Below are positions 12,045 through 59,945 of a stretch of DNA of 64,000 nt, in pieces. Within the stretch, counting starts at the first letter, position 1; each line of letters starts with the position of its first letter. Below the pieces are notes generated by a model. The model was not told the origin of the DNA, searched no databases, and worked only from the letters and a program-made list of their open reading frames with translations. The stretch is from an uncultured archaeon. GTDB lineage: Archaea > Aenigmatarchaeota > Aenigmatarchaeia > Aenigmatarchaeales > JAHLMS01. Made by a program: the position numbers and the translations under genes. Where the stretch lies: assembly GCA_964353775.1 (NCBI GenBank), contig CAYGWB010000002.1, positions 5,185 to 69,184 on the forward strand, given 5' to 3'.

Positions 12045-12047
12045 GGT

Positions 12048-12818: not shown

Positions 12819-12872
12819 AGGACCACGAGAATAGTTGTTAAAGCAAGAATAAAAAGGTTATTTCTTGTCTGA

Positions 12873-13103: not shown

Positions 13104-13138
13104 GAAAGAAACTACGAAAATAAACTTTATAAACACAA

Positions 13139-13267: not shown

Positions 13268-13289
13268 AAACTAGATTTCGGCTGCGCAG

Positions 13290-13305
13290 CTTATAAATTT
13301 ATAAG
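13290..13305. promoter_or_regulatory. perfect 16-bp palindromic TATA-like element CTTATAAATTTATAAG between the divergent tRNA (5' end 13267) and leuS (ATG 13327)
   Basis: Sequence is its own reverse complement; about 22-37 nt from both transcription units. Confidence 0.5.
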
Positions 13306-13326
13306 AACAGGCGGGAAAGACTTGAC

Positions 13327-26025: not shown

Positions 26026-26055
26026 ATAAAATGTTTTGCGTCAACTTCAGCACCA

Positions 26056-26065
26056 TTTTTATATC
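26056..26065. promoter_or_regulatory. shared AT-rich TATA element (TTTTTATATC) in the 61-bp divergent pyrH / alaS intergenic region
   Basis: About 25 nt upstream of alaS ATG 26087 and about 35 nt upstream of pyrH ATG on the opposite strand. Confidence 0.45.
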
Positions 26066-26086
26066 TGGATTTACTATATTGGAACT

Positions 26087-28804
26087 ATGCTGACCAAAGA
26101 GGATTTACGGAAACCGGAGCATTTCGCGCTGGATTTTTTCAAGAAGAGCAAGCTGAAGCGCCACGTCTGCAGCAAGTGCAAGGTCGGTTTCTGGTCCGTC
26201 GCACCGAAAGACACGTGCGGTGAGCCGCCGTGCGTCAACTACGGGTTCCTTGGCTCGCCAATAATCCCGGGCAAGTGGGACATGGACAGCATGCGCAAGG
26301 CTTTCATCAATTTCTTCGAGAAGAACGGACACAAGGCGATAACACGCTATCCGATAGTATGCAGATGGAAGGCGGACACTTACTTTGTCGGCGCGTCCAT
26401 CTATGACTTCATGCCGTGGGTCATAAACGGGACGATAGAGCCGCCGGCGAACCCGCTGGTAATCAGCCAGCCATCTTTCAGGGCTCAGGACCTGGATAAC
26501 GTCGGTCTGGGAACGGCCAGGCACATGCTGATATTCGAGATGATGGCTCACCACGCCTTCAACTACACCGACAAGACGATCTACTGGAAGGACAGGACCG
26601 TCGAGCTCTGCTGGAAATGGCTGACGGAAGAGCTGAAAATCAAGCCGGAGCTGATAACGTTCAAGGAGAACTCCTGGGAAGGCGGAGGGAACGCCGGCCC
26701 GTGCTTCGAGGTGTTGGCTGCCGGAAACGAGGTCGCGACGCTCGTCTTCATGGAGTTCATCGGACCTGTCAACGGCGGATACACTCCGATGGAAGTCAAG
26801 GTCGTTGACACAGGCTATGGTCTTGAGAGGCATCTGTGGGCGGCGACAGGTGTTCCGACAATTTATGATGCGGTCTATCCGGACATCGTCCGATGGCTCG
26901 CGAGCAAGGCAGGCGTGCCGGAACCGGACCCGGAAGTGTTCTACGAGTTCTGCCAGTATGCAGGCAACCTGAACGTCGAAGAGGCGAACGTGGACCAGAT
27001 GCGGGAAATTATCGCGGCAAAGGTCGGAAAGAAGCTGGACATGGAACCGAGCGATGTGATCAAGATGCTCCTGCCTTATCACGCGATATACCAGATCGCC
27101 GACCATACGAAGTCGATAATGTTCATCCTGGCCGACGGAGTCGTGCCCAGCAACGTCGCGGAGGGCTACATACCACGTCTGCTCATTCGTCGCTGTCTGA
27201 GGAACCTGGTCGATATCGGACTGCCCGAGCTTCCGCTCACGTCCGTAATAGAGAAACACATGAAGAGCTGGCCGGAGTTTGAGAAGGTGAAGAAGGACAT
27301 GTTTGACATAGTCGATTCCGAAAGCGAAAAATATTCGGCAACACTGAAACGCGGCGCGGACATAGTCAAAAGGGCGGTTTCGGAAGCCAGGAAGACGGGG
27401 AAGAAGGAGCTGGACCGTGAGACGCTCATCCAGCTGTATGACAGCCACGGACTGCTGCCGAGGGACGTGAAGAAGTTCTCGGAGCTGCCGCTGGCAGACA
27501 TATCGGACATTGACACGCGCATCGCCGTCCAGAAGACGACCGTGACGTTGCCTGTTGAGAAGGCTGTTGTTAGTGTCAAAGGCGTCCCTGAGACAAAACT
27601 GCTCTATCATGATAACGAGAAGCTCTACGATTTCACGGCGAAGGTGCTGCGCATAATCGAAAAGAAGTGGGTCGTGCTGGACAAGACGGCGTTCTATCCG
27701 AGAGGCGGTGGTCAGGAGCCAGACCTAGGCACGCTCGGCGACCACAAGGTGTACGACGTAGAGAAGATAGGGAACGTTGTCGTGCATGCTGTCGAGAACA
27801 TCAGGTTCAAAGAAGGTTCGACAATCAAAGGTAATGTGAACGCCGCCAGGAGACAGCAGATCGCGAAGCACCACACGGCCACGCACATAATCAACGGCGC
27901 GGCCAGACGGCTGCTGGGCGAACACGTCTGGCAGGCCGGAAGCAAAAAGGACGTGGACAAGGCGCACCTTGACATAACGCACTACGCGCAGCTGACGGAC
28001 CAGCAGATAGAAGCTATTGAAAAATCCGCGAACGATGTGGTGAAAAAGAAGCTGAAAGTGTTGAAGCAGACGCTGCCGAGAGACGAGGCCGAGCGCAAGT
28101 TCGGATTCAGGCTCTACCAGGGCGGCGCTGTGCCCGGCAGGATGCTGCACACCATAGACATCAGCGGCTGGGACGTGGAGGCCTGCGGAGGCATACACGT
28201 CAACAACACGTCCGAAATCGGGCCGATAGTCATACTCAAAACAGAAAGAGTGCAGGACGGCATCGTACGTCTTATCTATGCCGCCGGGCCTGCAGCGGAG
28301 AAACACCTGAAAGAACGAGCGGATATACTGGACCGCTGCGCGAAGCTGCTGAAGGTGAAGGAAGGCGAACTGCCTGAGGCCGTCAAGAAACTTTTCTTGG
28401 AATGGAAGAAGGCACAGAAGAAGTACGCCGAGTCCGTGGAGAAGACGGCCGAGAAGAAAATGAACGAGCTGAAGTTCATGGAGGCCGGGAAAGTGAGGAT
28501 ACTGGTCGCTGAAATTTCTGGCGGCAATCCGATGCAGCTGAAGGAGATATCTAGAAGGATGAGCGGCGACGACACCGTCATCGTGCTTTTCGGCACGAGC
28601 GACAAGGTCTACGTGTTCGCTTCGGCCGGGCCTTCGGCAGTCAAGGCCGGAGTCGACGTTGGCGCGATAACCAAGGACGCCTGCACCGAACTGGGCGGTG
28701 GCGGCGGCGGACAACCAGCACTGGCACAGGGCGTCGGGACCAAGAAGGAAAAGCTGAAGTTCATTATCGGCGACATCAAGCTGCGGCTGATGCAGGGTGG
28801 TTGA
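26087..28804 (+). CDS. alaS: alanyl-tRNA synthetase
   Basis: Start at internal MLTKEDLRKPEHF... (track N-terminal 17 aa overlap the promoter); class II core, editing domain HHTATH ... CGG, C-terminal DHHA1-like domain. Confidence 0.9.
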   Translation: MLTKEDLRKPEHFALDFFKKSKLKRHVCSKCKVGFWSVAPKDTCGEPPCVNYGFLGSPIIPGKWDMDSMRKAFINFFEKNGHKAITRYPIVCRWKADTYFVGASIYDFMPWVINGTIEPPANPLVISQPSFRAQDLDNVGLGTARHMLIFEMMAHHAFNYTDKTIYWKDRTVELCWKWLTEELKIKPELITFKENSWEGGGNAGPCFEVLAAGNEVATLVFMEFIGPVNGGYTPMEVKVVDTGYGLERHLWAATGVPTIYDAVYPDIVRWLASKAGVPEPDPEVFYEFCQYAGNLNVEEANVDQMREIIAAKVGKKLDMEPSDVIKMLLPYHAIYQIADHTKSIMFILADGVVPSNVAEGYIPRLLIRRCLRNLVDIGLPELPLTSVIEKHMKSWPEFEKVKKDMFDIVDSESEKYSATLKRGADIVKRAVSEARKTGKKELDRETLIQLYDSHGLLPRDVKKFSELPLADISDIDTRIAVQKTTVTLPVEKAVVSVKGVPETKLLYHDNEKLYDFTAKVLRIIEKKWVVLDKTAFYPRGGGQEPDLGTLGDHKVYDVEKIGNVVVHAVENIRFKEGSTIKGNVNAARRQQIAKHHTATHIINGAARRLLGEHVWQAGSKKDVDKAHLDITHYAQLTDQQIEAIEKSANDVVKKKLKVLKQTLPRDEAERKFGFRLYQGGAVPGRMLHTIDISGWDVEACGGIHVNNTSEIGPIVILKTERVQDGIVRLIYAAGPAAEKHLKERADILDRCAKLLKVKEGELPEAVKKLFLEWKKAQKKYAESVEKTAEKKMNELKFMEAGKVRILVAEISGGNPMQLKEISRRMSGDDTVIVLFGTSDKVYVFASAGPSAVKAGVDVGAITKDACTELGGGGGGQPALAQGVGTKKEKLKFIIGDIKLRLMQGG

Positions 28805-29741: not shown

Positions 29742-31829
29742 ATGACGATTTCTCAGGTGCTCAAGCGGGACGGCAGAACGGTGCAGTTCGAACCGGTGCG
29801 TATCACCAACGCCATCTCCAGGGCGCTGTTCGACGCCGGCATCGCTGACGGGAAGAAGGCCAGACAGCTCACCAAGCAGATCGTGAGGCTGCTGGAGAAG
29901 AAATATACGAAAAGGGCTGTGGATGTCGAAACAATACAGAATTCGGTCGAGATTGTTCTGAGAAGGTGGAACAAGGACGTCGCGACCATATATGCCGAGT
30001 ACAGACGCAAGAAAGCCGAGATAAGACAGGCGCGCGAGACGCTCGGAATAGAGGAGAAGCTGACGTACAACGCGATGGCCGTGCTCGAGCGGAGATACTT
30101 GCTGCGCAACGAGAAAGGGAAGACAATAGAGACGCCGAGCCAGATGTTCAGGCGCGTGGCCAGAGCAATCGCCTCGGCCGAGAGCAAGTACGGCGGCGAC
30201 CCGAAAAGGTCCGAAGAGGAATTCTTCAGGATGATGTCGAAGCTTGAGTTCCTGCCGAACAGCCCGACAATGTTCAATGCCGGAATGCCGCTCGGCCAGC
30301 TGGCCGCATGCTTTGTCCTCCCGATCGAGGACTCGCTCGAATCCATATTCACGTCGGTCAAGAACACCGCACTGATCGAACAGAGCGGCGGCGGTGTCGG
30401 TTTTTCGTTCTCCGGCCTGCGGCCGAAGGGCGACATCGTCCGCAGCACCATGGGCGTCGCTAGCGGTCCGGTCTCGTTCATGCGCGTGTTCGACGTAGCG
30501 ACGGATGTAATAAAGGCGGGTGGCAAGCGTCGCGGGGCGATGATGGGCGTGCTTCGCGTCGACCATCCCGACATAGTTGAGTTCGTAACAGCGAAGCAGA
30601 GACCGAACTTTCTTTCAAACTTCAACCTGTCCGTGGCCGTCACGGACAGCTTCATGAAAGCCGTGCATGCGAACGGCAGCTACAACCTGGTCAATCCGCA
30701 CACCGGCAAGGCCGTCAGGAAAATGAAGGCGAGATACGTATGGGACATTATAGTCGAGAACGCCTGGAGGACGGGCGACCCTGGCGTTATATTCATCGAC
30801 GAAGTCAACAGGACGAACCCGACATCGCATACAGGCGACATCGCCGCGACCAATCCGTGCGGCGAGCAGCCACTGCATTCGTATGAGTGCTGCAACCTCG
30901 GTTCGATAAATCTGACGAAGATGCTCATGAAGACGGAAGGCGGTTACGACATCGATTGGAAGAAGCTCGAGCACACCGTGAAGCTGTGCGTGCGCTTCCT
31001 AGATGACGTGATAGATGTCAACAAATATCCGATGCAGCAGATTCAGATGGCTTCCGAGGGGAACAGGCGCATCGGGCTCGGTGTCATGGGCTGGGCGGAC
31101 ACGCTGATAATGCTCGGCATTCCTTATGATTCTCCGGCGGCGCTGAAGCTTGCGGAAAAGATAATGAGGTTCATCAATGACAACGGGCATCATGCGTCCA
31201 TCGACCTCGGAAAGTCGCGCGGAAATTTCCAGAACTTCAAGGGCAGCCTTTGGGAGAAAAGGGGATATCCGGCCATGCGCAACGCGACCGTGACCACTAT
31301 CGCACCGACCGGCACGCTGTCCATAATAGCCGGCGTGAGCTCGGGCATCGAGCCGCTGTTCGGCGTTTCGTTCGTCAGAAAAGTCCTGGAAGGCAGACGG
31401 TTGCTGGAGGTCAATGGTACGTTCGAACGGATGGCGAAACAGAACGGTTTCTACTCGACGGAGTTGCTGATGAAGATTGCGAAGAACGGGAGCGCCAAAG
31501 GAGTCAAGGGCGTGCCGAAAGAGATGCAAAAATTGTTCGTAACGGCGCTCGAAATCGGACCGGAGTGGCACGTTCGCATGCAGTCCGCTTTCCAGAGACA
31601 TGTCGACAACTCTGTCTCAAAGACCATCAACTTCCCTGCTAACGCGAAGGTCGGCGATGTGCACAAGGCATATGAGCTGGCGTACAAAATGAAATGCAAG
31701 GGCATCACGGTCTATCGTTACGGTTCGAAACCAGAGCAAGTCCTGTATATCGGACCGAAAGAGATGATGCAAGCCGAAGCTGAGTTCGCAGGCGGCTGCC
31801 CGACAAACCTCTGTCCGACGCCGAGCTGA
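29742..31829 (+). CDS. nrdJ: ribonucleotide reductase, class II (adenosylcobalamin-dependent), with N-terminal ATP-cone
   Basis: ATP-cone at N-terminus; active-site region NPCGEQPL...YECCNLGSINL; 695 aa. Confidence 0.8.
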   Translation: MTISQVLKRDGRTVQFEPVRITNAISRALFDAGIADGKKARQLTKQIVRLLEKKYTKRAVDVETIQNSVEIVLRRWNKDVATIYAEYRRKKAEIRQARETLGIEEKLTYNAMAVLERRYLLRNEKGKTIETPSQMFRRVARAIASAESKYGGDPKRSEEEFFRMMSKLEFLPNSPTMFNAGMPLGQLAACFVLPIEDSLESIFTSVKNTALIEQSGGGVGFSFSGLRPKGDIVRSTMGVASGPVSFMRVFDVATDVIKAGGKRRGAMMGVLRVDHPDIVEFVTAKQRPNFLSNFNLSVAVTDSFMKAVHANGSYNLVNPHTGKAVRKMKARYVWDIIVENAWRTGDPGVIFIDEVNRTNPTSHTGDIAATNPCGEQPLHSYECCNLGSINLTKMLMKTEGGYDIDWKKLEHTVKLCVRFLDDVIDVNKYPMQQIQMASEGNRRIGLGVMGWADTLIMLGIPYDSPAALKLAEKIMRFINDNGHHASIDLGKSRGNFQNFKGSLWEKRGYPAMRNATVTTIAPTGTLSIIAGVSSGIEPLFGVSFVRKVLEGRRLLEVNGTFERMAKQNGFYSTELLMKIAKNGSAKGVKGVPKEMQKLFVTALEIGPEWHVRMQSAFQRHVDNSVSKTINFPANAKVGDVHKAYELAYKMKCKGITVYRYGSKPEQVLYIGPKEMMQAEAEFAGGCPTNLCPTPS

Positions 31830-31833
31830 TAAA

Positions 31834-32352
31834 ATGGGCATGGTCTATCTCTACACGGGCGACGGCGCTGGCAAGACAACGGCCGCGCTCGGGCTGGCGC
31901 TGCGGTCTATCGGCTGGGGGCATAGGGTCATAATCGTCCAGTTCATGAAGAGCTGGAAGAACGTCGGAGAGTGGAAGGTTCAGAAGAGACTGAAACCCTT
32001 GTACGAGATACATCAGTTCGGACGCAAAGGTTGGGTCGATGTGTACAAGCCGGACCAGAAGAACATAGAAGCGGCGAAGAAGGGACTGGAGTTCGCAAAA
32101 GAAATTTTACAGAAGCGGTCGCCGGATTTGCTGATACTCGACGAACTGAACCTCGCTGTCGGTGCGAAGCTGCTGACAGAGAAAGAAGTTCTGAACGTGC
32201 TGAAGAAGATTCCGAAGAAGACGACCGTTGTTCTGACCGGCAGATGGGCAACTAAGGCACTCATCAAAAGAGCGGACTTCGTCAACAACATCAAGGATGT
32301 TAAACATCCGTACATCAAAGGCATACCTGCGGAAAAAGGAATACAATATTAG
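31834..32352 (+). CDS. cobA: ATP:cob(I)alamin adenosyltransferase (CobA/CobO/BtuR type)
   Basis: P-loop GDGAGKTTAALGLALR and family length (172 aa); 5 nt downstream of the B12-dependent RNR. Confidence 0.75.
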   Translation: MGMVYLYTGDGAGKTTAALGLALRSIGWGHRVIIVQFMKSWKNVGEWKVQKRLKPLYEIHQFGRKGWVDVYKPDQKNIEAAKKGLEFAKEILQKRSPDLLILDELNLAVGAKLLTEKEVLNVLKKIPKKTTVVLTGRWATKALIKRADFVNNIKDVKHPYIKGIPAEKGIQY

Positions 32353-33185
32353 TGATATCTATGACCGAAGGTTCCATCAAAAAATTCTATAACGAATCGG
32401 TGGCTTACGAATGGAAAAGAGTGATTCAGGATCCGTATCATAGGTTGGAATTCGATACGACGATGAAATTTCTAAAAAAGTATCTTCCTAGAAAAGGCTT
32501 GATACTGGATGCAGGCGGAGGGCCTGGAAGATACACAATCGAACTTGCAAAACGAGGTTATGAAGTTGTTTTGCTGGACCTTGCTCCGGTAAATCTCAAA
32601 TTCGCCAAGAGACAAATAAGAAAAGCGAAAGTACAGAACAGGGTCAAGGATATTGTTGAGGGTTCGATAACCGACCTGTCAAGATTCAAGAGCAACACAT
32701 TCGATGCGGTCATTTGCCTGGGCGGCCCGCTATCGCACGTGGAAGGCAAAGAGAAGCGGAACAAAGCGCTGTTGGAACTCATCCGTGTGGCCAAGAAAGG
32801 CTCTCCGATTTTTGTTAATGTATACAGCAGGCTCGGCGTCGTCATGGGCGCACCGAGATATTTTTCACACGAGATTGCAATGACCAAGCATTTCAAAGAG
32901 CTGTCCGAATGTGGAGAGGATTACATGTGGCGTCAGAAATACTATGCTCATTTCTTTTTGCCAGAGGAGCTGAAACAATTCTTTACTGGAAAGAAGGTCA
33001 AAGTTATTGAAACTGTGGGACTGGAAGGTATCAGTTCGAGATTCAGGGAAGAAATAAACAAACTTGCAAAGAACCCGAAGGCATGGAAGAACTGGCTTGC
33101 CGCCCACTACAAACTATGCACGCATCCGGCAATAGTCGCGACAAGCGAACACGTCCTAATTATTTCTAGAAAGATTAAGAAATAA
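32352..33185 (+). CDS. class I SAM-dependent methyltransferase
   Basis: Motif I LDAGGGPGR, motif post-I VVLLDLA. Confidence 0.65.
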   Translation: MISMTEGSIKKFYNESVAYEWKRVIQDPYHRLEFDTTMKFLKKYLPRKGLILDAGGGPGRYTIELAKRGYEVVLLDLAPVNLKFAKRQIRKAKVQNRVKDIVEGSITDLSRFKSNTFDAVICLGGPLSHVEGKEKRNKALLELIRVAKKGSPIFVNVYSRLGVVMGAPRYFSHEIAMTKHFKELSECGEDYMWRQKYYAHFFLPEELKQFFTGKKVKVIETVGLEGISSRFREEINKLAKNPKAWKNWLAAHYKLCTHPAIVATSEHVLIISRKIKK

Positions 33186-33196
33186 TTAAAAGCTGA

Positions 33197-33439
33197 TCAC
33201 TTCAACTGCTTTCCCGCTTTGTCAAAAATATGTATGACGTTAACCGGGCAGGCATCCGCGGCGTCCTGGTTGCATCCGACATCGTCGACATCCAGTTCGA
33301 AACTCTCGCCTTTCTGTTTTGAGCCCTTCAGCTCGGATTTTCCGTCAGGACCCATCCCCCAGAACTTGTCACATACTGCTGCGCAGGCCCCGCATCCGAT
33401 GCAGCCCGACCTGTCGTGTACTATCTTGAACTTGGCCAT
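33197..33439 (-). CDS. ferredoxin (single [3Fe-4S]/[4Fe-4S] cluster type)
   Basis: CIGCGACAAVC ... CP pattern. Confidence 0.7.
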   Translation of the reverse strand: MAKFKIVHDRSGCIGCGACAAVCDKFWGMGPDGKSELKGSKQKGESFELDVDDVGCNQDAADACPVNVIHIFDKAGKQLK

Positions 33440-33489
33440 GTAATCACCTGAAATAGAAATGGCGCTTTCGCTAATTAAAGGTTTGGTCG

Positions 33490-33723
33490 CTAAAGGTCGA
33501 GCGCGCCCTCGATGGCGTGCCTGTTGAAGCCGATTATTATTTTTCCGTTGATTTCCAGTATAGGAACGGTCATCGCGCCGCCGGATATCTCCACCATCTC
33601 CCTGGCGGCCGATATATCTTTCTCGACGTTCAGCTCCGTGAAATTTATCCCCTTGGTCTTGAAGAAATTCTTAGCGGTCACGCAGTGCGGGCAGTTTGTC
33701 GTTGTGAAAATGCGAACTGACAT
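33490..33723 (-). CDS. glutaredoxin-like protein (NrdH-like)
   Basis: CPHC active site, 77 aa, adjacent to RNR. Confidence 0.75.
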   Translation of the reverse strand: MSVRIFTTTNCPHCVTAKNFFKTKGINFTELNVEKDISAAREMVEISGGAMTVPILEINGKIIIGFNRHAIEGALDL

Positions 33724-33779
33724 TAGATTGCCTCCGTTTTTTAATCTTTTAAAGATTTATGTTGCCGCAAATATATTTT

Positions 33780-36512
33780 TCACGAGCAACCAGAAGTGGC
33801 CCCGCAGTTCAAACACTTGTAGCATGAGCCGCTTCGCACCATTATCGATCCGCAGAGATAGCATGGCGGAGCGTCGGACTGGCTTGTGAACGACCTGTGA
33901 AGGTCGAATTTCTCCGTCAGCCTCTTCTGCTTCGCTTCCGTGTCCTCTGGCTTCACTATCTTCGGCAGCTCGAGCGTCGTGCCGTTAATCGGTGCTATCA
34001 ACCCCATCGATTCCAGCTCCTCCGATTTCAGGAACTTGGTCGCGAGCCATCTAAAAATATAATCGACGATCGACTTGGCGAACCTGATGTCAGGGTTCTC
34101 CGTGACGCCGGACGGTTCGAACCGCATGTGGACGAACTTGTCGGCCAGAACTTTCAACGGCACGCCGTACTGCAGGGCCATCGAGACCGACAGTCCTATG
34201 CTGTCCATGAGGCCGGAAATAGTGCTGCCTTCCTTGGCCATCTTTATGAATATCTCGCCCGGTGCGCCGTCCTCGTAAAGGCCGACCGTTATGTAGCCTT
34301 CGTGTCCGCCAACGGCGAACTTGTGCGTGATCGATGCCCTCTCAGGCGGCATTTTGTGCCTGACGGTCTTCTGAACCTTCTTCTCGTCGATCTTGGATGT
34401 CATCAGCGGCTGTGATCGCTTGCAACCGTCGCGGTAGATGGCGATCGCCTTCAGGCCCATCTTCCATGACGTCATGTAGACGTCCGCTATTTCCGATTGC
34501 GTCGCCTCGTTCGGCATGTTGACCGTCTTTGATATCGCGCCTGAGATGAACGGCTGAGCAGCGGCCATCATCCTGACGTGGCCCATGTAGTGGATTGTCC
34601 GCGTTCCCTTGGCGGGCTTGAATGCGCAGTCAAAGACCGGCAGATGCTCGGACAAAAGACCTGGAGCGCCTTCTATAGTATCGTTCTTGTCGATGTGTTC
34701 GAGTATGTCCCTGATCTGGCCGTCCGAGTAGCCAAGGTTCTTCAGCGCTTCTGGAACGGTGCGGTTGACCATCTTTATCACTCCACCGCCGACCAGACGC
34801 TTGTATTTCACCAGAGCGATGTCCGGCTCTATGCCGGTTGTGTCGCAGTCCATCATGAAACTGATCGTACCTGTCGGAGCGAGCAGGGTTACGTTCGCAT
34901 TCCTGAAGCCCCATTTCTTTCCGGCATCAACAACGGAGTCCCAAGCCGAAGTGACGGACGCAAGCAGGTCGACCGGCACTCCTACGCTTCCTATCTTGTA
35001 AGAATAATCTCGATGCATGTTCATCACGTTCAGCATCGGCTGTTCGTTGTCCTTGTAGTGTTTGAACGTTCCTACCTCCTTTGCTATCACCGCCGACTGC
35101 TTGTAGGCCGCCGCTGTCATTAGCGCGGTCAGAGCGGCCGAGAAATTCCTGCCGGCTTCGCTGTCATATGCGAGCCCTCTGGACATGAGCAGAGCTCCCA
35201 GATTGGCATAACCCAGGCCGAGCGGCCTGAACTCCTTGCTGTTCCTTGTGATCAGCTCGGTCGGATAGCCGGCATTGTCGACTATGATCTCCATCGCAGT
35301 CAAAATTATGTCGATGGCGCGCTCGAAGGCAGCGATGTCGAACTCGCAGGTCGGCGTTCTGAACTTCATCAGGTTGAGCGAAGCGAGATTGCAGGCGCTG
35401 TTGTCGAGGAAGACGAACTCGGCGCACGGGTTGCTTGCGTTGATCCTTCCGCTGTTAGGACAGGTGTGCCAGCGGTTCGTCGTGCTGTCAAACTGCAATG
35501 CAGGGTCGCCGCAGATGTGCGCTGAGTCTGTTATCGCAGCCATTACTTCCTTCGCCTTGTAGTTGTCCGCCGGCTGTTTAGAAACGACATAGTGCGTCGT
35601 CCACGTCCCGTCCGTGTCGACAGCGCGCATGAAATCGTCAGTGACGCGCACGCTGTGGTTCGCGTTCTGGAACTGGACCGAATCGTAAGCTCCGCCCGCG
35701 ACATTGAAAGTGCCGTCGTAGCCTGCGTCTATCAGCGCCCAGGCCTTCTTCTCCTCCTCGGCCTTGCACTTGATGAACTCCATCACGTCGGGATGATCGA
35801 TGTTCATTATGACCATCTTCGCGGCGCGTCTTGTCTTGCCGCCGGACTTGATGACGCCGGCGAAGGCGTCGAAGCCTCGCATGAAGCTGACCGGACCGGA
35901 AGCCTTTCCGCCCGATGACAGCGTCTCCTTGGCGCTGCGCAGAGCGGAAACGTTGACGCCCGAACCGCTGCCGTACTTGAATATCATCCCCTCTTCGTTC
36001 ACGAGATTGAGTATCGAACGCATTTCGTCCTTGACTGAAAGAATGAAGCACGCCGAGCATTGCGGTTCCTTCTCTACACCGACATTGAACCAGACCGGAC
36101 TGTTGAAAGAGAGATACTGATTTATCAGCAGGTATGTCAGTTCCGACTCGAAGGTCGCGGCGTCCTCTGCTGTCGCGAAATATCCGCCCGACTGGCCCCA
36201 GCTCGCCACTGTCCGTGAGACGCGATCTATCATCTGCCTTAGCGACCACTCGCGGGCGGGCGTTCCCTGCTTTCCTCGGAAATATTTAGAAGCGACTATG
36301 TTGACCGCGGTCTGCGACCAGGACTTCGGCACCTCGACGCCCTTCTGTTCGAAGACAGTATCGCCCTTCTCGTTTATTATCGCTGCGTCGCGGATGTCCC
36401 ATTCGACCGACTCAAAAGGATGCACGCCCGGCTTTGTGAAGAAGTGTGCGAACCTCAGACCTTTCGGTCCGCCGTCCATTATCTCATGTACGATCTCGAC
36501 TTTGTCTGTCAT
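33780..36512 (-). CDS. nrdJ: ribonucleotide reductase, class II, long monomeric type with C-terminal zinc ribbon
   Basis: Active-site NPCAEFVFLDNSACNLASLNL; C-terminal CYLCG...CYKCLNCG zinc finger; 910 aa. Confidence 0.8.
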   Translation of the reverse strand: MTDKVEIVHEIMDGGPKGLRFAHFFTKPGVHPFESVEWDIRDAAIINEKGDTVFEQKGVEVPKSWSQTAVNIVASKYFRGKQGTPAREWSLRQMIDRVSRTVASWGQSGGYFATAEDAATFESELTYLLINQYLSFNSPVWFNVGVEKEPQCSACFILSVKDEMRSILNLVNEEGMIFKYGSGSGVNVSALRSAKETLSSGGKASGPVSFMRGFDAFAGVIKSGGKTRRAAKMVIMNIDHPDVMEFIKCKAEEEKKAWALIDAGYDGTFNVAGGAYDSVQFQNANHSVRVTDDFMRAVDTDGTWTTHYVVSKQPADNYKAKEVMAAITDSAHICGDPALQFDSTTNRWHTCPNSGRINASNPCAEFVFLDNSACNLASLNLMKFRTPTCEFDIAAFERAIDIILTAMEIIVDNAGYPTELITRNSKEFRPLGLGYANLGALLMSRGLAYDSEAGRNFSAALTALMTAAAYKQSAVIAKEVGTFKHYKDNEQPMLNVMNMHRDYSYKIGSVGVPVDLLASVTSAWDSVVDAGKKWGFRNANVTLLAPTGTISFMMDCDTTGIEPDIALVKYKRLVGGGVIKMVNRTVPEALKNLGYSDGQIRDILEHIDKNDTIEGAPGLLSEHLPVFDCAFKPAKGTRTIHYMGHVRMMAAAQPFISGAISKTVNMPNEATQSEIADVYMTSWKMGLKAIAIYRDGCKRSQPLMTSKIDEKKVQKTVRHKMPPERASITHKFAVGGHEGYITVGLYEDGAPGEIFIKMAKEGSTISGLMDSIGLSVSMALQYGVPLKVLADKFVHMRFEPSGVTENPDIRFAKSIVDYIFRWLATKFLKSEELESMGLIAPINGTTLELPKIVKPEDTEAKQKRLTEKFDLHRSFTSQSDAPPCYLCGSIMVRSGSCYKCLNCGATSGCS

Positions 36513-43506: not shown

Positions 43507-43832
43507 GCGAGTTTGAGTCCGTTCTTTACTTTTCTTTCCGGCTGGGCGAGCACTACGTCTCCGTTTTCCAACACGAAGCCTGTCGTGAGAACCTCGGACC
43601 TGAAATCGGCTATCTGCTTCGGCGGGAAGTTGGTGACACATATCACCTGCCTGCCGAGCAGCTCGTCTTTCTTGTACAGCTTGGTTATCTGCGCACTGGA
43701 CTGCTTGACGCCCAGTTCGCCGAGGTCTATCCACAGCTTGTAGGCCGGAACCTTGGCCTTCGGGAAGTCCTCCACGCGGACGACCGTTCCGACGCGGATG
43801 CCGGCCTTCTCGAAGTCTTCCCAGGTTATCAT
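43503..43832 (-). CDS. tRNA-binding domain protein (CsaA/Trbp111/EMAP-like OB fold)
   Basis: Start at internal MITWEDFEK; conserved [12 protein letters not shown]...KLWIDLGE...ICVTNFPP. Confidence 0.7.
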
Positions 43833-44152: not shown

Positions 44153-44425
44153 AATAGAGCTACCGCTAGGAGAAGTTAGTATATTTCTACAGAAATCTAC
44201 TAGAACCTTCTCTTTTTTGCGAAACACTCTCTGCAAAAGACTGGCTTGCCTTCTGTGGGCTTGAAAGGAACTTCGCATTCCTTCTGGCACTCAGAACAGA
44301 TAGCCTTGTGCATTTCCCTGGGTCCGCGATCAAAGCTTCTGTCGCCGCCGAATCGTCTTTCTCCGAATGGCATATTTATTTCCTCCTGAATCAAGTGCTG
44401 TACGAGAGTTTATAAAGGTATATTC
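44153..44425. repeat. repeat copy A (about 270 bp; gene + promoter + 3' flank) homologous to 59690-59945
   Basis: About 80% nucleotide identity by eye, including non-coding flanks (AGCTACCGCTA..., TCTCTTTTTTGCGAAACA, GTTTATAAAGG). Confidence 0.7.
44200..44373 (-). CDS. small zinc-ribbon protein, copy A (57 aa, CX2C-X17-CX2C)
   Basis: ATG 44373 preceded by SD GGAGG and TATA-like TTTATAAAC; track ORF extends to an upstream TTG; paralog at 59726-59899. Confidence 0.65.
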   Translation of the reverse strand: MPFGERRFGGDRSFDRGPREMHKAICSECQKECEVPFKPTEGKPVFCRECFAKKRRF

Positions 44426-51956: not shown

Positions 51957-52004
51957 AATCCGCGCTGAGGTTTTCTTCTCGTATTCATCGAGCGTTGTTT
52001 AGAA

Positions 52005-52715
52005 TCATCTCTCGACAACGACGATATCTCCGGTAAATAGGAGAATAGAATTTATGAGCATGTCCTGATCAACTTCGATTATGCCCTTTGTTTTATTGCT
52101 CATCCTTTCATTGTCCATAACAATAAATCTGTCTTTTTTATGGCCTATCACTGTTACGAAATGGCCAAAGGCCACTCCCCGTATGTCATCATATTTTTTC
52201 CTATACACCCTTCTTTTACCATAAAAAATGCTTCCATTTACAGGACATATGACCGGTATTCCTCTGGAAATATAACTGCTGATGAGCTCTTTGGTGATCG
52301 GTTTGAAAACTATGTTTCCGCCTTTGGTCAGAAAATCTATTATTGCCTTGGTTGATTGCTTATAACACCAGAAAATATATCCGTCGCGGACATCACGGGC
52401 GTTGTATCTTGTTACGAACGCGAGCCTCTTCTTGAGTCTTCTAATGAGCGCTGGTTTTGAAAGTTTATACCATGCCGGGTCAAAAAAATGGGTTGAAAGG
52501 GTGAAAATGGTGGCATTGAACCCCCTCGCAACCGCTGCTGTTCCTAGCTTGAATTCCCAATCCACGTATTTTTGTTCGGATCTGGTATCATTGATTATCT
52601 TGCGTAGGTTGTAATTATCTCTGCCCAAATAATCCATCACTATCTTGAGGGCGGCCGGGCCGCATTCCATATGGGGCTGAACTATTCTTTTCAATTTGAT
52701 TTTCGTTGGCATCAT
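52005..52715 (-). CDS. peptidase C39-like domain protein (stand-alone, no ABC transporter fusion)
   Basis: Q..HMECGPAALKIVMDYLG matches the Gln/Cys region of C39 bacteriocin-processing peptidases. Confidence 0.6.
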   Translation of the reverse strand: MMPTKIKLKRIVQPHMECGPAALKIVMDYLGRDNYNLRKIINDTRSEQKYVDWEFKLGTAAVARGFNATIFTLSTHFFDPAWYKLSKPALIRRLKKRLAFVTRYNARDVRDGYIFWCYKQSTKAIIDFLTKGGNIVFKPITKELISSYISRGIPVICPVNGSIFYGKRRVYRKKYDDIRGVAFGHFVTVIGHKKDRFIVMDNERMSNKTKGIIEVDQDMLINSILLFTGDIVVVER

Positions 52716-52744
52716 AAATAAATAGAACTCTCTTTATTTATACT

Positions 52745-54049
52745 TTGAGCGTGTTTGCAATTCGTCTGAGCGATATTTTTGACGGCAATGAGTGCGGGAA
52801 GGAAGAGCTAGAAAGAAAGCTGTCCGTCATAACCGATAAAAAATTCGGCCTGGTAAAATCATTAGAAAAGACGCTGAAATTCAACGACGAACCGAAGCTG
52901 CATCATTACGTCATCGCATTGGCAGGCAGGCAATTTTCCAGCGGGACTGCGCTCAGTGACGAAAGGGCCAGATTGAAAGCCGTCTGTGAAGCGATCGAGA
53001 GGTTCTGCCTTTCAAAATATGACGGAAAGACTTCGATAATTTCATCGTATTCTAAACTCGAACAGGCGCTTGATCCGACCTCTCTGGCCGGAGTTGCGCC
53101 GCAGGATAAGAAGAAGTTCGGCAATTATGACGGAAATACAAAATTCGCATGGGTAAGCGGCCTCTCTATGACAAGAAATGATAAAATCTGGATACCGGCG
53201 CAGCTCGTATATGTTCCGTATCAAAGCAACGAGCCTGTAATAAGAAATACAATATCCACCGGCGCCGCATCGGGAACGTCCTACTCGGCGGCGATTTATC
53301 GCGGCCTCTGCGAGGTCATAGAAAGGGACGCATTCATGATAACATATCTTAACAAGTTGCCGAGGTCCGTGATAGACATAGCCTCTGCAAAAAGCGAGGA
53401 CGTCCGAAGGCTGGACTACATCTTCAGAAGGTACGACCTGGAGAGATACTCCTTTGACATAACCACCGATGTGGGCGTTCCTGTGATATTGACCATTCTT
53501 GTGGACAGGAGCGGCGTCGGACCGTCCGTCAGCCTGGGCATGAAATGCAGCTTCAACGTAGAAGAGGCGCTGCTCGGGTCCATGGAAGAAGCGCAGCAAA
53601 CAAGGCCATGGATACGGGGGGAAATGCACAAGTTTTTGCAAACGGGAAAAATGCCGCCGGAACAACGGCACTTTTTAGAGAGGGCATTTTTCTGGTACGA
53701 TGTCGGCATGATCAAAAAACTGGATTTCCTGCTCAAAACAAAAAATAAAATAAAAATTAGCAGAATAAAGAGCCGTAACTTCAAGGACAGCAACGAACGG
53801 CTAAGAGCGGTCCTGCGCGCCCTGAGGGGCTACGAGACGGACGTAGTTGACCTGACTGATAAAAAAATAGGAAGGGCCGGCTTCAGGGTTATCAAGGCGA
53901 TAGTGCCTGAGATGCAACCGCTGCACCTTGTAGAAGGGCGGCGGTACCTGGGCGGCCGACGATTATATGCCGTACCTAGGATATTGGGTTACAGGAAGAG
54001 GGACAGCAAATACGACGACCTGAACAAAACGCCTCATCCGTTTTTGTGA
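52745..54049 (+). CDS. YcaO-domain protein (ATP-dependent cyclodehydratase family)
   Basis: YcaO motifs: ...SSGTALSDE..., CEAIERF, STGAASGTSYSAAIYRGLCEVIERDAF; TTG/GTG start. Confidence 0.8.
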   Translation: MSVFAIRLSDIFDGNECGKEELERKLSVITDKKFGLVKSLEKTLKFNDEPKLHHYVIALAGRQFSSGTALSDERARLKAVCEAIERFCLSKYDGKTSIISSYSKLEQALDPTSLAGVAPQDKKKFGNYDGNTKFAWVSGLSMTRNDKIWIPAQLVYVPYQSNEPVIRNTISTGAASGTSYSAAIYRGLCEVIERDAFMITYLNKLPRSVIDIASAKSEDVRRLDYIFRRYDLERYSFDITTDVGVPVILTILVDRSGVGPSVSLGMKCSFNVEEALLGSMEEAQQTRPWIRGEMHKFLQTGKMPPEQRHFLERAFFWYDVGMIKKLDFLLKTKNKIKISRIKSRNFKDSNERLRAVLRALRGYETDVVDLTDKKIGRAGFRVIKAIVPEMQPLHLVEGRRYLGGRRLYAVPRILGYRKRDSKYDDLNKTPHPFL

Positions 54050-54777
54050 TAGTCATGGCAGACGATTTCGTTCAGAAGACCAAAATCAAGTCCTTTTCTG
54101 GAAAGAGGAGTTCTTCCACGATGCCATATGTCTACGATAAGATCCATTTCAAGAGCTATCCGCGCTTCAAAAGCACGTGCTTCAAAAAAATAATACCTTC
54201 CAATGAAATTGAAAAGCTGCTCCTGAAAAGGAGCTCGGAAAGGGCCTTCAGTGGAAGGCCGCTCTCATTGGATGAGCTCGGAAAGCTGCTGTATTTCAGC
54301 GGAGGAGTAAGCTGCGTCCGCAAGAAGGACTTTGACCACAGCCGCAGAACGTATCCTTCAGCCGGGGCGAGATACCCGCTCGAGATATATCCGATCGTGT
54401 TCAATGTACGCGGACTGAAACCGGGCGTCTATCATTACAACGTCAAGAGCAACTCTCTGGAGACGATACTGGAAGGCAATGCCAGGAACGTCTTTCCCTG
54501 CCTCGACCAGAGCTGGACAAAGAAGGCTTCGGTGATAATATTGGTTTCTGCCGTGTTTGCCAGGACCACGATAAAATATCATGAACGCGGGTACAGGTAC
54601 GTCTTTCTGGACGCCGGGCACCTTGTGCAGAACATGTATCTGGCTTCGGCTTCCATGGGCCTGAACTGCTGCAGCATAGGCGGCTTCGTGGACGACGGGC
54701 TTAACGAACTGCTGGATATAGACGGCGAAAAAGAATCCGTAATATATGTGGTCGGCATCGGCAAAAGGCGTGTTTAA
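54046..54777 (+). CDS. SagB-type (McbC-like) FMN-dependent dehydrogenase
   Basis: Nitroreductase-fold SagB signatures RSSERAFSG, RTYPSAGARYPLEIY, VFLDAGHLVQNMYL; overlaps ycaO by 4 nt. Confidence 0.8.
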   Translation: MIVMADDFVQKTKIKSFSGKRSSSTMPYVYDKIHFKSYPRFKSTCFKKIIPSNEIEKLLLKRSSERAFSGRPLSLDELGKLLYFSGGVSCVRKKDFDHSRRTYPSAGARYPLEIYPIVFNVRGLKPGVYHYNVKSNSLETILEGNARNVFPCLDQSWTKKASVIILVSAVFARTTIKYHERGYRYVFLDAGHLVQNMYLASASMGLNCCSIGGFVDDGLNELLDIDGEKESVIYVVGIGKRRV

Positions 54778-54800
54778 ATAACTTTCTTACCAGTTATTGC

Positions 54801-54974
54801 CATGTCAAAAGAATATCAGAACAGGGCACTTGCAGATGCGACAGAATTCCCTTCACCAAAAATGAAGGAATATAATACTGCCAGCAACTGCAATGGTGGC
54901 AACTGCACAGGACCGCCGTCGAACTGCTATGGCGGAGTCCCTGTAAAGCGCGCCAGAACCTCTAGAAAAAAGTA
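54801..54974 (+). CDS. candidate RiPP precursor peptide, 57 aa (not in ORF track)
   Basis: ATG 24 nt after sagB-like stop, same strand; MSKEYQNRALADATEFPSPKMKEYNTASNCNGGNCTGPPSNCYGGVPVKRARTSRKK: polar leader then Cys/Asn/Gly/Ser-rich core with three N-C dipeptides, basic tail; followed by T-run. Confidence 0.55.
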
Positions 54975-55009
54975 AGGCCGTCGTTGCTAAACGATGACTT
55001 AGCTTGGCT

Positions 55010-55020
55010 ATGTTTTTTTA
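55010..55020 (+). terminator. oligo-T terminator after candidate precursor gene
   Basis: T7 run about 37 nt after precursor stop, preceded by imperfect hairpin GTCGTTG..CGATGAC. Confidence 0.45.
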
Positions 55021-55033
55021 TATAATTCTCTCT

Positions 55034-55201
55034 TCAGAGCATCCTTTTCAGTTCTTCGATCTCTTTGTCAAGGTAAAGGGCCTCGCGATTGTATCGAAAC
55101 AATGGCGGAAAAAGAAACGAGAAAGGCTTGCTATATACTGCCATTTCTTCACGCCTTTTTTCTAAAGTTTCGACCCTCTTCCGAATATCGTCATTGCTCA
55201 T
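55034..55201 (-). CDS. small hypothetical coiled-coil ORF (55 aa)
   Basis: ATG-initiated ORF convergent on the precursor gene; charged helical sequence; weak. Confidence 0.25.
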   Translation of the reverse strand: MSNDDIRKRVETLEKRREEMAVYSKPFSFLFPPLFRYNREALYLDKEIEELKRML

Positions 55202-55264
55202 ATTGAAATATTAGAACTGAAGCTTTAAGTGTCTTTTGGTTGAATCGTCCGGGAATCGAGGAAC

Positions 55265-59689: not shown

Positions 59690-59945
59690 ACCGCTAAAGA
59701 AGTCAGTAAATCTTTTCAGAATTTACTAGAAGCTTCTCTTTTTTGCGAAACAATCTCTGCAAAAGACGGGTCTATCTCCGGATGGCTTGAAAGGAACTTC
59801 GCATTCCTGCTTGCATTCTGCACAGACAGCCTTATGCATTTCCCTGGGTCCACGGTCAAAGCTTCTGCCGCCGCCGAAACGTCTTTCTCCGAATGGCATA
59901 TTTTTTTCCTCCTGCTTTTAGTTGCTTCATAATGTTTATAAAGGC
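59690..59945. repeat. repeat copy B homologous to 44153-44425
   Basis: Same as copy A. Confidence 0.7.
59726..59899 (-). CDS. small zinc-ribbon protein, copy B (57 aa; not in ORF track)
   Basis: MPFGERRFGGGRSFDRGPREMHKAVCAECKQECEVPFKPSGDRPVFCRDCFAKKRSF, about 84% identical to copy A; SD GGAGG and TATA-like TTTATAAAC conserved. Confidence 0.65.
   Translation of the reverse strand: MPFGERRFGGGRSFDRGPREMHKAVCAECKQECEVPFKPSGDRPVFCRDCFAKKRSF

What the first reader, a model, noticed from the sequence alone, without database searches (positions are those of the whole stretch)
54801..54974. Unannotated 57-aa Cys/Asn/Gly-rich small ORF: putative precursor peptide
Seen: MSKEYQNRALADATEFPSPKMKEYNTASNCNGGNCTGPPSNCYGGVPVKRARTSRKK. 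It has a polar N-terminal region, a core of three Asn-Cys dipeptides spaced by Gly/Pro/Ser, two GG motifs (possible C39 double-glycine-type cleavage sites) and a basic tail. It is below the 60-aa cutoff of the ORF track. Its position, orientation and composition fit a TOMM/LAP precursor.
Basis: partly seen in the sequence, partly recalled or inferred. Interest (0 to 1): 0.8.

Follow-up and report, generated by a model that had tools for sequence, protein, structure and literature searches.

The report
Archaeal thiazole-peptide precursor gene, unannotated
The 57-codon ORF is a real, conserved gene for the substrate peptide of the adjacent YcaO/SagB enzymes, so it is a new archaeal member of the already predicted "linear azole peptide" gene clusters of ultra-small microbes, not a new kind of system.

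Summary
The ORF exists at 54802-54975 (+), one base off the stated coordinates, and its sequence is exactly as reported. An ORF of this length alone is not beyond chance. Conservation is what makes it real.

- **Orthologue:** a locus whose YcaO is 64% identical (L003) has a homologous peptide at the same position. It shares TEFPS and GNCTGPPSNCYGG. Nine of those 18 identical residues use different, purely synonymous codons (pN 0.24, pS 0.70).
- **Family:** the ORF belongs to an unannotated peptide family. A conserved leader motif (hydrophobic-x-D-x-x-E-F) precedes a hypervariable Cys-rich core, next to YcaO-SagB pairs in archaea and CPR bacteria.
- **Expression signals:** it has its own consensus archaeal TATA box (TTTAAATA-N21-ATG, implying a leaderless mRNA).
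- **Setting:** it sits in a 3.3-kb accessory island holding a C39-like peptidase, YcaO, SagB and the precursor. A close relative lacks the island.
- **Enzymes:** the YcaO is of the azoline-forming type (TIGR03604; fold of LynD) but lacks any E1/ThiF/RRE partner. SagB keeps the Lys-Tyr motif.

The TOMM/LAP reading is supported. The double-glycine cleavage idea is only partly supported: the first GG is not conserved, and the second lies at a conserved G-[IV]P[IV]-[RK] junction found only in peptidase-C39-linked peptides. YcaO/nitroreductase/peptidase LAP clusters in CPR were already reported in 2020. I rate it a new member of a known kind, of moderate interest.

The parts
51961..55262 (.). 3.3-kb accessory island that carries the whole cassette
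   Evidence: blastn against close relative L086: the flanks align at 84% (to window 51960) and 87% (from window 55263). The stretch between is replaced in L086 by 830 bp holding two unrelated genes. GC is 46.9% against 51.3% for the window.
52005..52715 (-). Standalone C39-like cysteine peptidase (236 aa, no transporter domain), the presumed maturation protease
   Evidence: Pfam PF13529 9.1e-7 (30 bits, cut-off 24) and PF03412 22.4 bits (cut-off 22). Gln13, Cys18 (MECGP), His185 and Asp201 are invariant in the three orthologues. Both catalytic motifs align weakly to LahT150, 6mpz.
52745..54049 (+). YcaO cyclodehydratase, azoline-forming type, with no fused E1/RRE domain (public gene call starts at 52751, 432 aa)
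   Evidence: TIGR03604 SagD family 1.8e-77, 260.8 bits against cut-off 219. PDB profile hits cover only residues ~350-783 of MusD/TruD/LynD. AF2 model pLDDT 92.5; best fold match LynD 4v1v, TMq 0.81. C-terminal P428-H429-P430-F431 is conserved.
54046..54777 (+). SagB-type FMN dehydrogenase (azoline to azole oxidase); the public gene call starts at 54055
   Evidence: TIGR03605 1e-48. PDB hits include SagB-type dehydrogenase/CyaGox 9e-18 and McbC 1e-12. The K-Y of window TIKYHERGYRY aligns with FKYRYRGYR of McbC.
54773..54780 (+). Archaeal TATA box TTTAAATA, 21 nt before the ATG; implies a dedicated promoter and a leaderless mRNA
   Evidence: The same octamer lies 21-22 nt before the ATG in 6 of 7 archaeal family members. 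There are 9 copies in the window against 1.3 expected, including ~25-33 nt upstream of tRNA-Phe and tRNA-Gln.
54802..54975 (+). Precursor peptide gene (57 aa plus stop), the finding itself
   Evidence: Homologue in L003. pN 0.24 against pS 0.70 over 52 codons. Family HMM 7e-14, the only significant hit in the window.
54835..54849 (+). Leader recognition motif D12-A-T-E-F16
   Evidence: D12 and F16 are invariant and E15 is at least 90% conserved in the 17-sequence alignment A2. Translation checked.
54883..54936 (+). Predicted core SNCNGGNCTGPPSNCYGG (Cys30, Cys35, Cys42), the presumed sites of thiazole formation
   Evidence: The GNCTGPPSNCYGG block is identical in L003 despite 8 synonymous codon changes. 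Cores are hypervariable across the family.
54937..54972 (+). C-terminal motif VPVKR plus basic tail (possible follower or protease site)
   Evidence: [IV]P[IV][RKG] follows the last Cys in 5 of 5 peptides from C39-peptidase clusters, and in 0 of 13 from M16 clusters and 0 of 1 from a ThiF cluster.
54970..55019 (+). Hairpin followed by a T7 run (55013-55019), a plausible transcription stop
   Evidence: RNA fold -13.4 kcal/mol, z = -1.8, which is weak. T-run read from the sequence.
55034..55201 (-). 55-aa ORF of unknown status inside the island
   Evidence: Called as a gene in L002. Translation. No homologue in any fetched locus.

Best explanation
The ORF at 54802-54975 encodes the precursor (A) peptide of a minimal four-gene linear azole-peptide (LAP/TOMM-type RiPP) cassette in an archaeon.

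Proposed sequence of events:
1. The gene is transcribed from its own consensus TATA box as a leaderless mRNA.
2. The N-terminal leader, with the conserved hydrophobic-x-D-x-x-E-F motif, docks the peptide on the modification enzymes.
3. The ATP-dependent YcaO cyclodehydrates Cys30, Cys35 and Cys42 (and possibly neighbouring Ser/Thr) to thiazolines.
4. The FMN-dependent SagB dehydrogenase oxidises these to thiazoles.
5. The divergently encoded standalone C39-like cysteine peptidase trims the product.

What is shown:
- The gene is real and under purifying selection.
- The peptide family is linked to YcaO-SagB.
- The enzyme types are as stated.
- No partner protein is encoded in the cassette.
- The cassette is accessory.

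What is inferred:
- The chemistry itself.
- Leader recognition is probably by YcaO or SagB directly. The same leader motif occurs whether or not a ThiF-like gene is present, and no RRE is encoded.
- The peptidase probably cuts at the conserved Gly-[IV]P[IV]-[RK] junction after Gly45.

The biological target of the product is unknown. An antimicrobial or nucleic-acid/ribosome-binding role is a guess from analogy with microcin B17 and phazolicin.
For: Coding and conservation:
- L003 (YcaO 64% identical) has ...DVTEFPSAEYKKAKDRHAGNCTGPPSNCYGGHCSQSCGGSCGIPVRHIAKKK directly after SagB.
- 18 identical residues carry 9 codon differences, all synonymous.
- pN 0.24 against pS 0.70.

Family:
- A motif and HMM scan of 16,436 ORFs from 78 loci recovers about 20 peptides, nearly all immediately beside YcaO-SagB on the same strand.
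- D12 and F16 are invariant.
- A profile search of 5.8 billion proteins finds 18 members, all 'hypothetical'.

Enzymes:
- TIGR03604 and TIGR03605 score above cut-off.
- The YcaO fold is closest to the heterocyclases LynD, MusD and TruD.
- The K-Y motif of SagB aligns with McbC.

Protease:
- Pfam C39-type hits and a conserved Gln/Cys/His/Asp set.
- Non-orthologous replacement by an M16 peptidase at 18 related loci argues for a maturation role.

Promoter: TTTAAATA-N21/22-ATG in 6 of 7 archaeal members.

Host is archaeal: pheT_arch, leuS_arch and archaeal alaS models score above cut-off.

Accessory island.

Precedent: the same cluster type has been predicted as LAP in CPR genomes (PMC7298704).
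Against: - No experimental data exist for any member: no transcript, peptide or mass shift.
- No E1-like or Ocin-ThiF partner or RRE is present in the island or in the 64-kb window. Characterised azoline-forming YcaOs other than the bottromycin enzymes need one (PMC8442711). Some relatives of this YcaO clade do carry a ThiF-like gene (L084, L011, L024), so a partner encoded elsewhere in the genome cannot be excluded.
- No transporter or immunity gene lies in the island.
- Only three Cys are present. Two C39-linked relatives (L004, L082) have a single Cys, which is unusual for a poly-azole product.
- Close relatives of this exact peptide are very rare: one hit among 1.84 billion representatives.
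Confidence: 0.8

Rival explanations
1. The ORF is a chance open frame in the SagB 3' intergenic region and is not translated.
For: ORFs of this size are abundant by chance: 137 of at least 40 aa in 20 kb. Gene callers did not call it. There is no Shine-Dalgarno sequence.
Against: - A homologue sits at the same position in L003, with only synonymous changes in the conserved blocks and pN far below pS.
- Family HMM E = 7e-14, with the next best hit in the window at 0.6.
- A consensus TATA box lies at leaderless spacing, which explains the missing SD.
Confidence: 0.02
2. The peptide is a genuine small protein but not a YcaO substrate. For example it could be a metal-binding or nucleic-acid-binding Cys-rich basic peptide that merely neighbours the enzymes, whose true substrate is encoded elsewhere.
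For: - The cores are Cys-rich and the tail is basic.
- No RRE partner links peptide to enzyme.
- YcaO proteins also modify non-RiPP proteins, such as McrA and ribosomal proteins (PMC8442711; PMC13063428, listed).
Against: - Cys number and spacing are not conserved: 1 to about 9 Cys and no fixed CxxC geometry. That fits a hypervariable RiPP core, not a structural metal site.
- Linkage to YcaO-SagB persists across bacteria and archaea despite differing flanks.
- The island contains nothing else that could be the substrate.
- No TfuA is present.
Confidence: 0.08
3. The peptide is a YcaO substrate but the chemistry differs. It could be a thioamide, an amidine or an ATP-dependent peptidase activity instead of thiazole formation. 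Alternatively the released product could be the C-terminal cationic tail, with the N-terminal part acting as a long double-glycine leader.
For: - YcaOs catalyse several reactions. MusD, one of the closest structures, has ATP-dependent peptidase activity (7u58 title).
- The conserved GG/CG-[IV]P[IV] junction resembles a C39 site with the product on the C-terminal side.
- The tails of L004 and L082 are long, basic and amphipathic.
Against: - A SagB dehydrogenase with the K-Y motif is translationally coupled to YcaO in nearly all loci, which points to azoline oxidation.
- The Cys-rich region is the shared hallmark of the family.
- The tail in the window is only 12 residues, and M16-linked members have almost no tail.
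- No TfuA is present.
Confidence: 0.1

Closest known systems
LAP clusters predicted in CPR bacteria (Sharrar et al. 2020, mBio, PMC7298704): YcaO + nitroreductase + peptidase + adjacent precursor; 110 clusters in 93 genomes
   Same: Same minimal architecture: precursor, YcaO, adjacent SagB/nitroreductase, one peptidase, no E1/ThiF partner. The YcaOs are 36-44% identical to the window's. The CPR peptides I retrieved share the D-x-x-E-F leader motif.
   Different: - The host here is an archaeon.
- The peptidase is C39-like, not the M16 peptidase found at 18 related loci.
- The precursor lies downstream of SagB, with its own TATA box, rather than upstream of YcaO.
- An extra conserved [IV]P[IV][RK] motif with a basic tail is present.
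- None of these clusters has been characterised experimentally, as far as the searchable literature shows.
Microcin B17 (McbA with McbBCD) and other linear azole peptides (streptolysin S, plantazolicin, klebsazolicin, phazolicin)
   Same: A ribosomal precursor with leader and a Gly/Ser/Cys/Asn-rich core. YcaO cyclodehydratase plus SagB/McbC-type FMN dehydrogenase. Leader removal by a separate protease.
   Different: - Those systems need an E1-like C protein or an Ocin-ThiF protein carrying the leader-binding RRE. Here none is present.
- There is no ABC exporter or immunity gene.
- The leader has no similarity to known precursor families: no Pfam or NCBIfam hit.
Haloazolisin clusters of haloarchaea (Cox, Doroghazi & Mitchell 2015, PMC4603692)
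   Same: Archaeal, uncharacterised YcaO-SagB clusters with poorly recognisable or missing leader-binding domains. The haloarchaeal YcaOs are 30-34% identical.
   Different: - The haloarchaeal loci carry a ~310-aa CxxC...CxxC E1-like partner directly upstream of YcaO, and the window does not.
- Haloazolisin precursors are mostly Ser-rich.
- No C39-like peptidase is associated with them.
Bottromycin biosynthesis (standalone YcaOs, follower peptide)
   Same: YcaO enzymes that work without an E1/ThiF partner (PMC8442711). A conserved C-terminal extension follows the core.
   Different: Bottromycin precursors have no N-terminal leader, whereas here a conserved leader motif exists. Bottromycin uses no SagB-type azoline oxidase of this kind. 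No sequence similarity was found.
Double-glycine leader peptides cleaved by C39 peptidase domains of PCAT/AMS transporters (e.g. LahT, ComA)
   Same: A papain-like C39-type peptidase with a Gln/Cys/His/Asp set is encoded beside the precursor. Gly occupies the residue before the conserved junction in 4 of 5 peptides.
   Different: - The peptidase is standalone, with no ABC transporter.
- There is no canonical double-glycine leader consensus.
- The conserved GG lies after the core, not at the leader/core boundary.

Membership tests
TOMM/LAP precursor peptide (RiPP) | Short ORF adjacent and co-directional to a YcaO cyclodehydratase gene | tested here: met
   The ORF at 54802-54975 starts 24 nt after the SagB stop, on the same strand as YcaO and SagB.
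TOMM/LAP precursor peptide (RiPP) | Conserved leader followed by a variable Cys/Ser/Thr-rich core among homologues | tested here: met
   Alignment A2: D12 and F16 invariant, E15 at least 90% conserved. Cores vary in length and sequence but are Cys-rich.
TOMM/LAP precursor peptide (RiPP) | Azoline-forming YcaO (SagD family, Pro-rich C-terminus) | tested here: met
   TIGR03604 260.8 bits against cut-off 219. Fold closest to LynD/MusD/TruD. The C-terminus ...TPHPFL is conserved.
TOMM/LAP precursor peptide (RiPP) | SagB/McbC-type FMN dehydrogenase with catalytic Lys-Tyr | tested here: met
   TIGR03605 1e-48. K-Y aligned with McbC FKY. The catalytic role of this K-Y rests on the published McbC work, recalled from memory.
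TOMM/LAP precursor peptide (RiPP) | E1-like (C) or Ocin-ThiF (F) partner carrying an RRE that binds the leader | tested here: not met
   - The YcaO covers only the YcaO half of LynD.
- No ThiF-like ORF was found in the 64-kb window by phmmer with the partners of L084 and the haloarchaea.
- There is no room for one in the island.
- A partner elsewhere in the genome is not excluded.
TOMM/LAP precursor peptide (RiPP) | Peptide is actually heterocyclised (-18/-20 Da per Cys/Ser/Thr) | not testable with these tools
   Needs mass spectrometry after expression or in vitro reconstitution.
Known curated precursor families (NHLP, Nif11, SagA-like, heterocycloanthracin and others in Pfam/NCBIfam) | Match to a curated HMM | tested here: not met
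   No Pfam hit at E<=1 for 17 members apart from one spurious hit at 0.073. No NCBIfam precursor family at E<=10.
Double-glycine (C39) leader peptide | GG/GA/GS at the end of an N-terminal leader with hydrophobic residues at -4, -7, -12 and -15 | tested here: not met
   - There is no Gly between the leader motif (residues 12-16) and Cys30.
- GG32-33 is AG in L003 and lies inside the core.
- GG44-45 lies after the core.
- The residues at -4/-7/-12 are N/T/M and N/P/G (read).
Double-glycine (C39) leader peptide | C39 peptidase domain encoded in the cluster | tested here: met
   PF13529 9.1e-7 and PF03412 at cut-off. Conserved Gln13/Cys18/His185/Asp201. However it is standalone and not fused to an ABC transporter.
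CPR-type LAP cluster (Sharrar 2020) | YcaO with adjacent nitroreductase, one peptidase, precursor beside them, no C/F protein | tested here: met
   The differences are an archaeal host, a C39-like rather than M16 peptidase, and a precursor downstream of SagB.
Haloazolisin cluster (Cox 2015) | Truncated fused cyclodehydratase or F-like protein next to YcaO | tested here: not met
   The partner family is present in 9 haloarchaeal loci but absent from the window.

The most novel reading that the evidence does not exclude
The cassette is a truly partner-independent azole synthetase. On this reading, YcaO and/or SagB read the D-x-x-E-F leader directly, with no RRE protein. The system has moved horizontally between CPR bacteria and archaea. 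In the archaeal branch the precursor has become bipartite: a second, C-terminal recognition element (Gly-[IV]P[IV]-[RK] plus basic tail) is read by a standalone C39-like protease. That would make a 3.3-kb, four-gene unit the smallest self-sufficient LAP pathway and the first tractable archaeal azole RiPP.
Probability: 0.3. Interest if true: 0.65.

Novelty: new member of a known kind. Interest (0 to 1): 0.45.

Why it matters
- **Uncharacterised territory:** as far as the searchable literature shows, no archaeal YcaO-type (azole) RiPP and none of the CPR/DPANN LAP clusters has been characterised experimentally. At least one survey misreads such clusters as methyl-coenzyme M reductase thioamidation genes (PMC12153355).
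- **Missed by annotation:** the precursor genes are systematically overlooked by gene callers. This one is absent from all records, and in L083 the wrong frame was called.
- **A usable signature:** the work gives a concrete search pattern of a D-x-x-E-F leader, a Cys-rich core and, in archaea, TTTAAATA-N21-ATG.
- **A small test system:** the complete cassette is only 3.3 kb. It is a convenient system for asking how a YcaO without an RRE partner finds its substrate.
- **Open biology:** it could also show what azole peptides do for very small, probably host-dependent cells.

Tried and rejected
- **Word-indexed search with the single peptide:** no homologue.
- **Exhaustive phmmer of the peptide:** only the L003 peptide and one spurious repeat protein.
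- **Exact look-ups of the ORF and of the TTG-start YcaO:** not on record.
- **Metagenome scan with the C39-peptidase alignment:** one short contig without context (L079) and two distant hits.
- **Viral contig scan with the YcaO alignment:** nothing.
- **AF2 of the peptidase from a single sequence:** pLDDT 43, unusable, so not searched.
- **PDB sequence search of the peptidase:** nothing significant alone. As a 3-sequence profile it gave only a sub-threshold LahT150 match.
- **Organism name:** look-ups of ten window proteins returned no names, so the lineage is only 'archaeon'.
- **Bacterial promoter/terminator scan:** uninformative for an archaeon.
- **Rfam:** only three tRNAs in the window, nothing at the locus.
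- **The TM+TPR neighbour family as C39-like:** I considered this, but Pfam did not confirm it.
- **Metallothionein-like reading:** rejected because the Cys number and spacing are not conserved.

Full report
**Observation**

The stated coordinates are off by one. Translating 54801-54974 gives a frame with stops. The ORF is 54802-54975 (+), ATG to TAA, and encodes exactly the reported 57 residues. Cys lie at positions 30, 35 and 42, each preceded by Asn. GG lies at 32-33 and 44-45. The last 12 residues are VPVKRARTSRKK.

The gene is unannotated. No gene with this product is on record, and gene calls on two identical Logan contigs skip it.

An ORF of this size is not remarkable in itself. The surrounding 20 kb holds 137 ORFs of at least 40 aa.

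**Surroundings**

Three genes lie immediately upstream:
- 52005-52715 (-): a standalone C39-like peptidase. PF13529 scores 9e-7 and PF03412 sits at its cut-off.
- 52745-54049 (+): a YcaO. TIGR03604 (SagD family) scores 1.8e-77, above cut-off.
- 54046-54777 (+): a SagB dehydrogenase (TIGR03605, 1e-48). Its stop overlaps a TTTAAATA box.

Further upstream is a purine operon (purS/L/Q/N/M, guaA). The window is archaeal: the archaeal-type PheRS-beta, LeuRS and AlaRS models all score above cut-off. I could not obtain an organism name.

**Is the ORF a gene?**

The YcaO has one close relative (64% identity) on Logan contig L003, with the same order of peptidase(-), YcaO, SagB. Directly after SagB, L003 encodes MPITYKNKDLSIEDVTEFPSAEYKKAKDRHAGNCTGPPSNCYGGHCSQSCGGSCGIPVRHIAKKK.

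- The blocks TEFPS and GNCTGPPSNCYGG are identical to the window. Nine of these 18 codons differ, and every difference is synonymous.
- Over 52 aligned codons pN is 0.24 and pS is 0.70.
- The two genomes differ strongly in GC (51% against 34%).

This is protein-level purifying selection.

**The family**

L003 has a second paralogue beside the 3' end of the peptidase gene: MKNRYDSRLDIPMVDSIEFPADGYKKRDGITAKCSGSCGQGCGGNCGSCGCGIPVRIKRISNKTK.

A scan of one genome per species with a YcaO alignment returned 75 loci, mostly CPR/Patescibacteria, DPANN and other archaea, and haloarchaea. The YcaO-SagB pair is conserved in nearly all of them.

An HMM and a motif search over all 16,436 stop-to-stop ORFs of these loci recovered about 20 peptides with a shared leader motif, hydrophobic-x-D-x-x-E-F. 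About 12-20 residues later comes a Cys-rich, otherwise hypervariable core. Nearly all lie immediately upstream of YcaO on the same strand. In the 17-sequence alignment D12 and F16 are invariant and E15 nearly so.

Cys-rich small ORFs make up 30% of size-eligible ORFs next to the gene pair, against 12% elsewhere.

Database searches:
- A profile search of 5.8 billion proteins found 18 members, all 'hypothetical' and without Pfam domains.
- No Pfam or NCBIfam precursor family matches.
- In the window, the family HMM hits only this ORF (7e-14; next best 0.6).

**Expression signals**

TTTAAATA lies 21 nt before the ATG. The same octamer lies 21-22 nt before the ATG of six of the seven archaeal family members examined (window, L003a, L003b, L004, L083, L084; not L082).

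The octamer occurs 9 times in the window against 1.3 expected. Two copies sit ~25-33 nt upstream of tRNA-Phe and tRNA-Gln, so it is this organism's promoter consensus. The spacing implies a leaderless mRNA from a dedicated strong promoter, which also explains why there is no Shine-Dalgarno sequence. This step is inferred from established knowledge of archaeal promoters.

A hairpin and a T7 run follow the stop codon. The fold is only weakly better than shuffles.

**Accessory island**

A relative with 84-87% nucleotide identity in the flanks (L086, a 443-kb ENA contig) has the same purine operon and the same downstream genes. It lacks window 51961-55262 and carries 830 bp with two unrelated genes in its place.

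The cassette is therefore a 3.3-kb accessory unit. It holds the peptidase, YcaO, SagB, the precursor, and a 55-aa ORF of unknown status that has no homologues.

**Enzymology that can be read from sequence and structure**

A PDB profile search aligns the YcaO to residues ~350-783 of MusD, TruD and LynD. That is the YcaO domain only, without their E1-like and RRE domains. The AF2 model (pLDDT 92.5) best matches LynD (TM 0.81 on the query, 0.48 on the target), ahead of the thioamide-forming archaeal YcaOs. The ExxER motifs and the Pro-rich C-terminus are conserved.

SagB matches SagB-type azoline oxidases and McbC, with the K-Y motif aligned.

A ThiF-like partner gene sits directly upstream of YcaO in some relatives: L084, L011, L024, L034, L065 and the haloarchaeal loci. 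None is present in the window, in the other C39-type loci, or in the M16-type CPR loci.

The same leader motif occurs with a ThiF-like gene (L084: LEEAKEF) and without one. That suggests the leader is read by a component common to all clusters, YcaO or SagB. This is an inference.

**The protease and the GG question**

The peptidase keeps Gln13, Cys18, His185 and Asp201 in all three orthologues. Both catalytic motifs align, below significance, to the double-glycine protease LahT150.

At 18 related loci an M16 peptidase follows SagB instead. Non-orthologous replacement at the same position supports a maturation role for both.

The canonical double-glycine model does not fit:
- No Gly lies between the leader motif and Cys30.
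- GG32-33 is AG in L003.
- The hydrophobic ladder is absent.

What is conserved is a junction after the last Cys:
- window CYGG-VPVKR
- L003a SCG-IPVRH
- L003b GCG-IPVRI
- L082 SHGG-IPIRK
- L004 GIA-IPIGV

A basic tail follows in each. The [IV]P[IV][RKG] motif is present in 5 of 5 peptides from C39-type clusters. It is absent from all 13 M16-type peptides and the one ThiF-type peptide. I therefore propose that the C39-like enzyme recognises or cuts at this junction. This is an inference from co-occurrence only. The site of leader removal remains unknown.

**Comparison with the literature**

Sharrar et al. 2020 (PMC7298704) reported a CPR cluster with YcaO, nitroreductase, peptidase and an adjacent precursor, predicted as a LAP. 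They found 110 such clusters in 93 CPR genomes.

Cox et al. 2015 (PMC4603692) described the haloarchaeal 'haloazolisins', which have truncated cyclodehydratases and no recognisable leader-binding region.

Partner-independent YcaOs are known from bottromycin (PMC8442711).

I found no paper on the archaeal C39-type cassette, on the D-x-x-E-F leader, or on any experimental characterisation. One survey interprets CPR YcaO clusters as MCR thioamidation (PMC12153355), which the SagB and precursor context contradicts.

**Verdict**

The double-glycine detail is only partly supported.

This is a new archaeal member of an already predicted kind of cluster. Its modest variant features are a C39-like rather than M16 peptidase, a C-terminal conserved motif, a dedicated promoter, and accessory-island status.

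The chemistry, the partner independence and the biological role are all untested. I give confidence 0.8 that this is the YcaO/SagB substrate, and about 0.3 for the fully partner-independent, bipartite-recognition model.

Noticed in passing
window 59726-59899 (-) and 44200-44394 (-): Two paralogous small CxxC-x17-CxxC proteins (TIGR04272, E about 1e-19), each beginning MPFGERRFGG...; function unknown.
   Followed up: partly
window 55034-55201 (-): A 55-aa ORF (MSNDDIRKRVETLEKRREEM...) lies inside the 3.3-kb island, convergent with the precursor. It was called as a gene on one identical contig, and no homologue was found in any fetched locus.
   Followed up: partly
L083 5110-5340 (+) versus called gene 5150-5383: The public gene call downstream of SagB is in a different reading frame from the conserved precursor (IDEAREF leader, Cys-rich core, TTTAAATA-N22-ATG). 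It is a likely mis-annotation.
   Followed up: yes
window 43519-43829 versus L086 6081-6391: The tRNA-binding-domain gene that sits next to guaA in the close relative lies about 8 kb away in the window. This indicates a local rearrangement at the site where the cassette is found.
   Followed up: partly
L084 827-1417, 1410-2054, 4171-4746; also L012, L024: A third cluster type in archaeal relatives. A short ThiF-like protein (214 aa, two CxxC pairs) lies upstream of YcaO, with one or two copies of a ~195-aa protein carrying an HELVH motif (possible metalloprotease) instead of C39 or M16.
   Followed up: partly
window 7118-7447 (+): A Cys-rich ORF of about 100 aa with CxxC pairs lies between tRNA-Trp and the Trp/Tyr-tRNA synthetase-like gene. 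It turned up as a false positive of the leader regex.
   Followed up: no
window 5007-16071, 26036-28804, 29742-36512: An unusual concentration of aminoacyl-tRNA synthetase genes (GlyRS, Trp/TyrRS, PheRS alpha and beta, LeuRS, AlaRS), plus two ribonucleotide reductase large-subunit genes: one with an ATP-cone, one B12-dependent with a TSCPD domain.
   Followed up: no
L086 11357-14434: The relative's contig carries PD-(D/E)xK, EVE-like and TIR/ThsB-like genes a few kb downstream of the empty site, so a defence-type island lies nearby.
   Followed up: no
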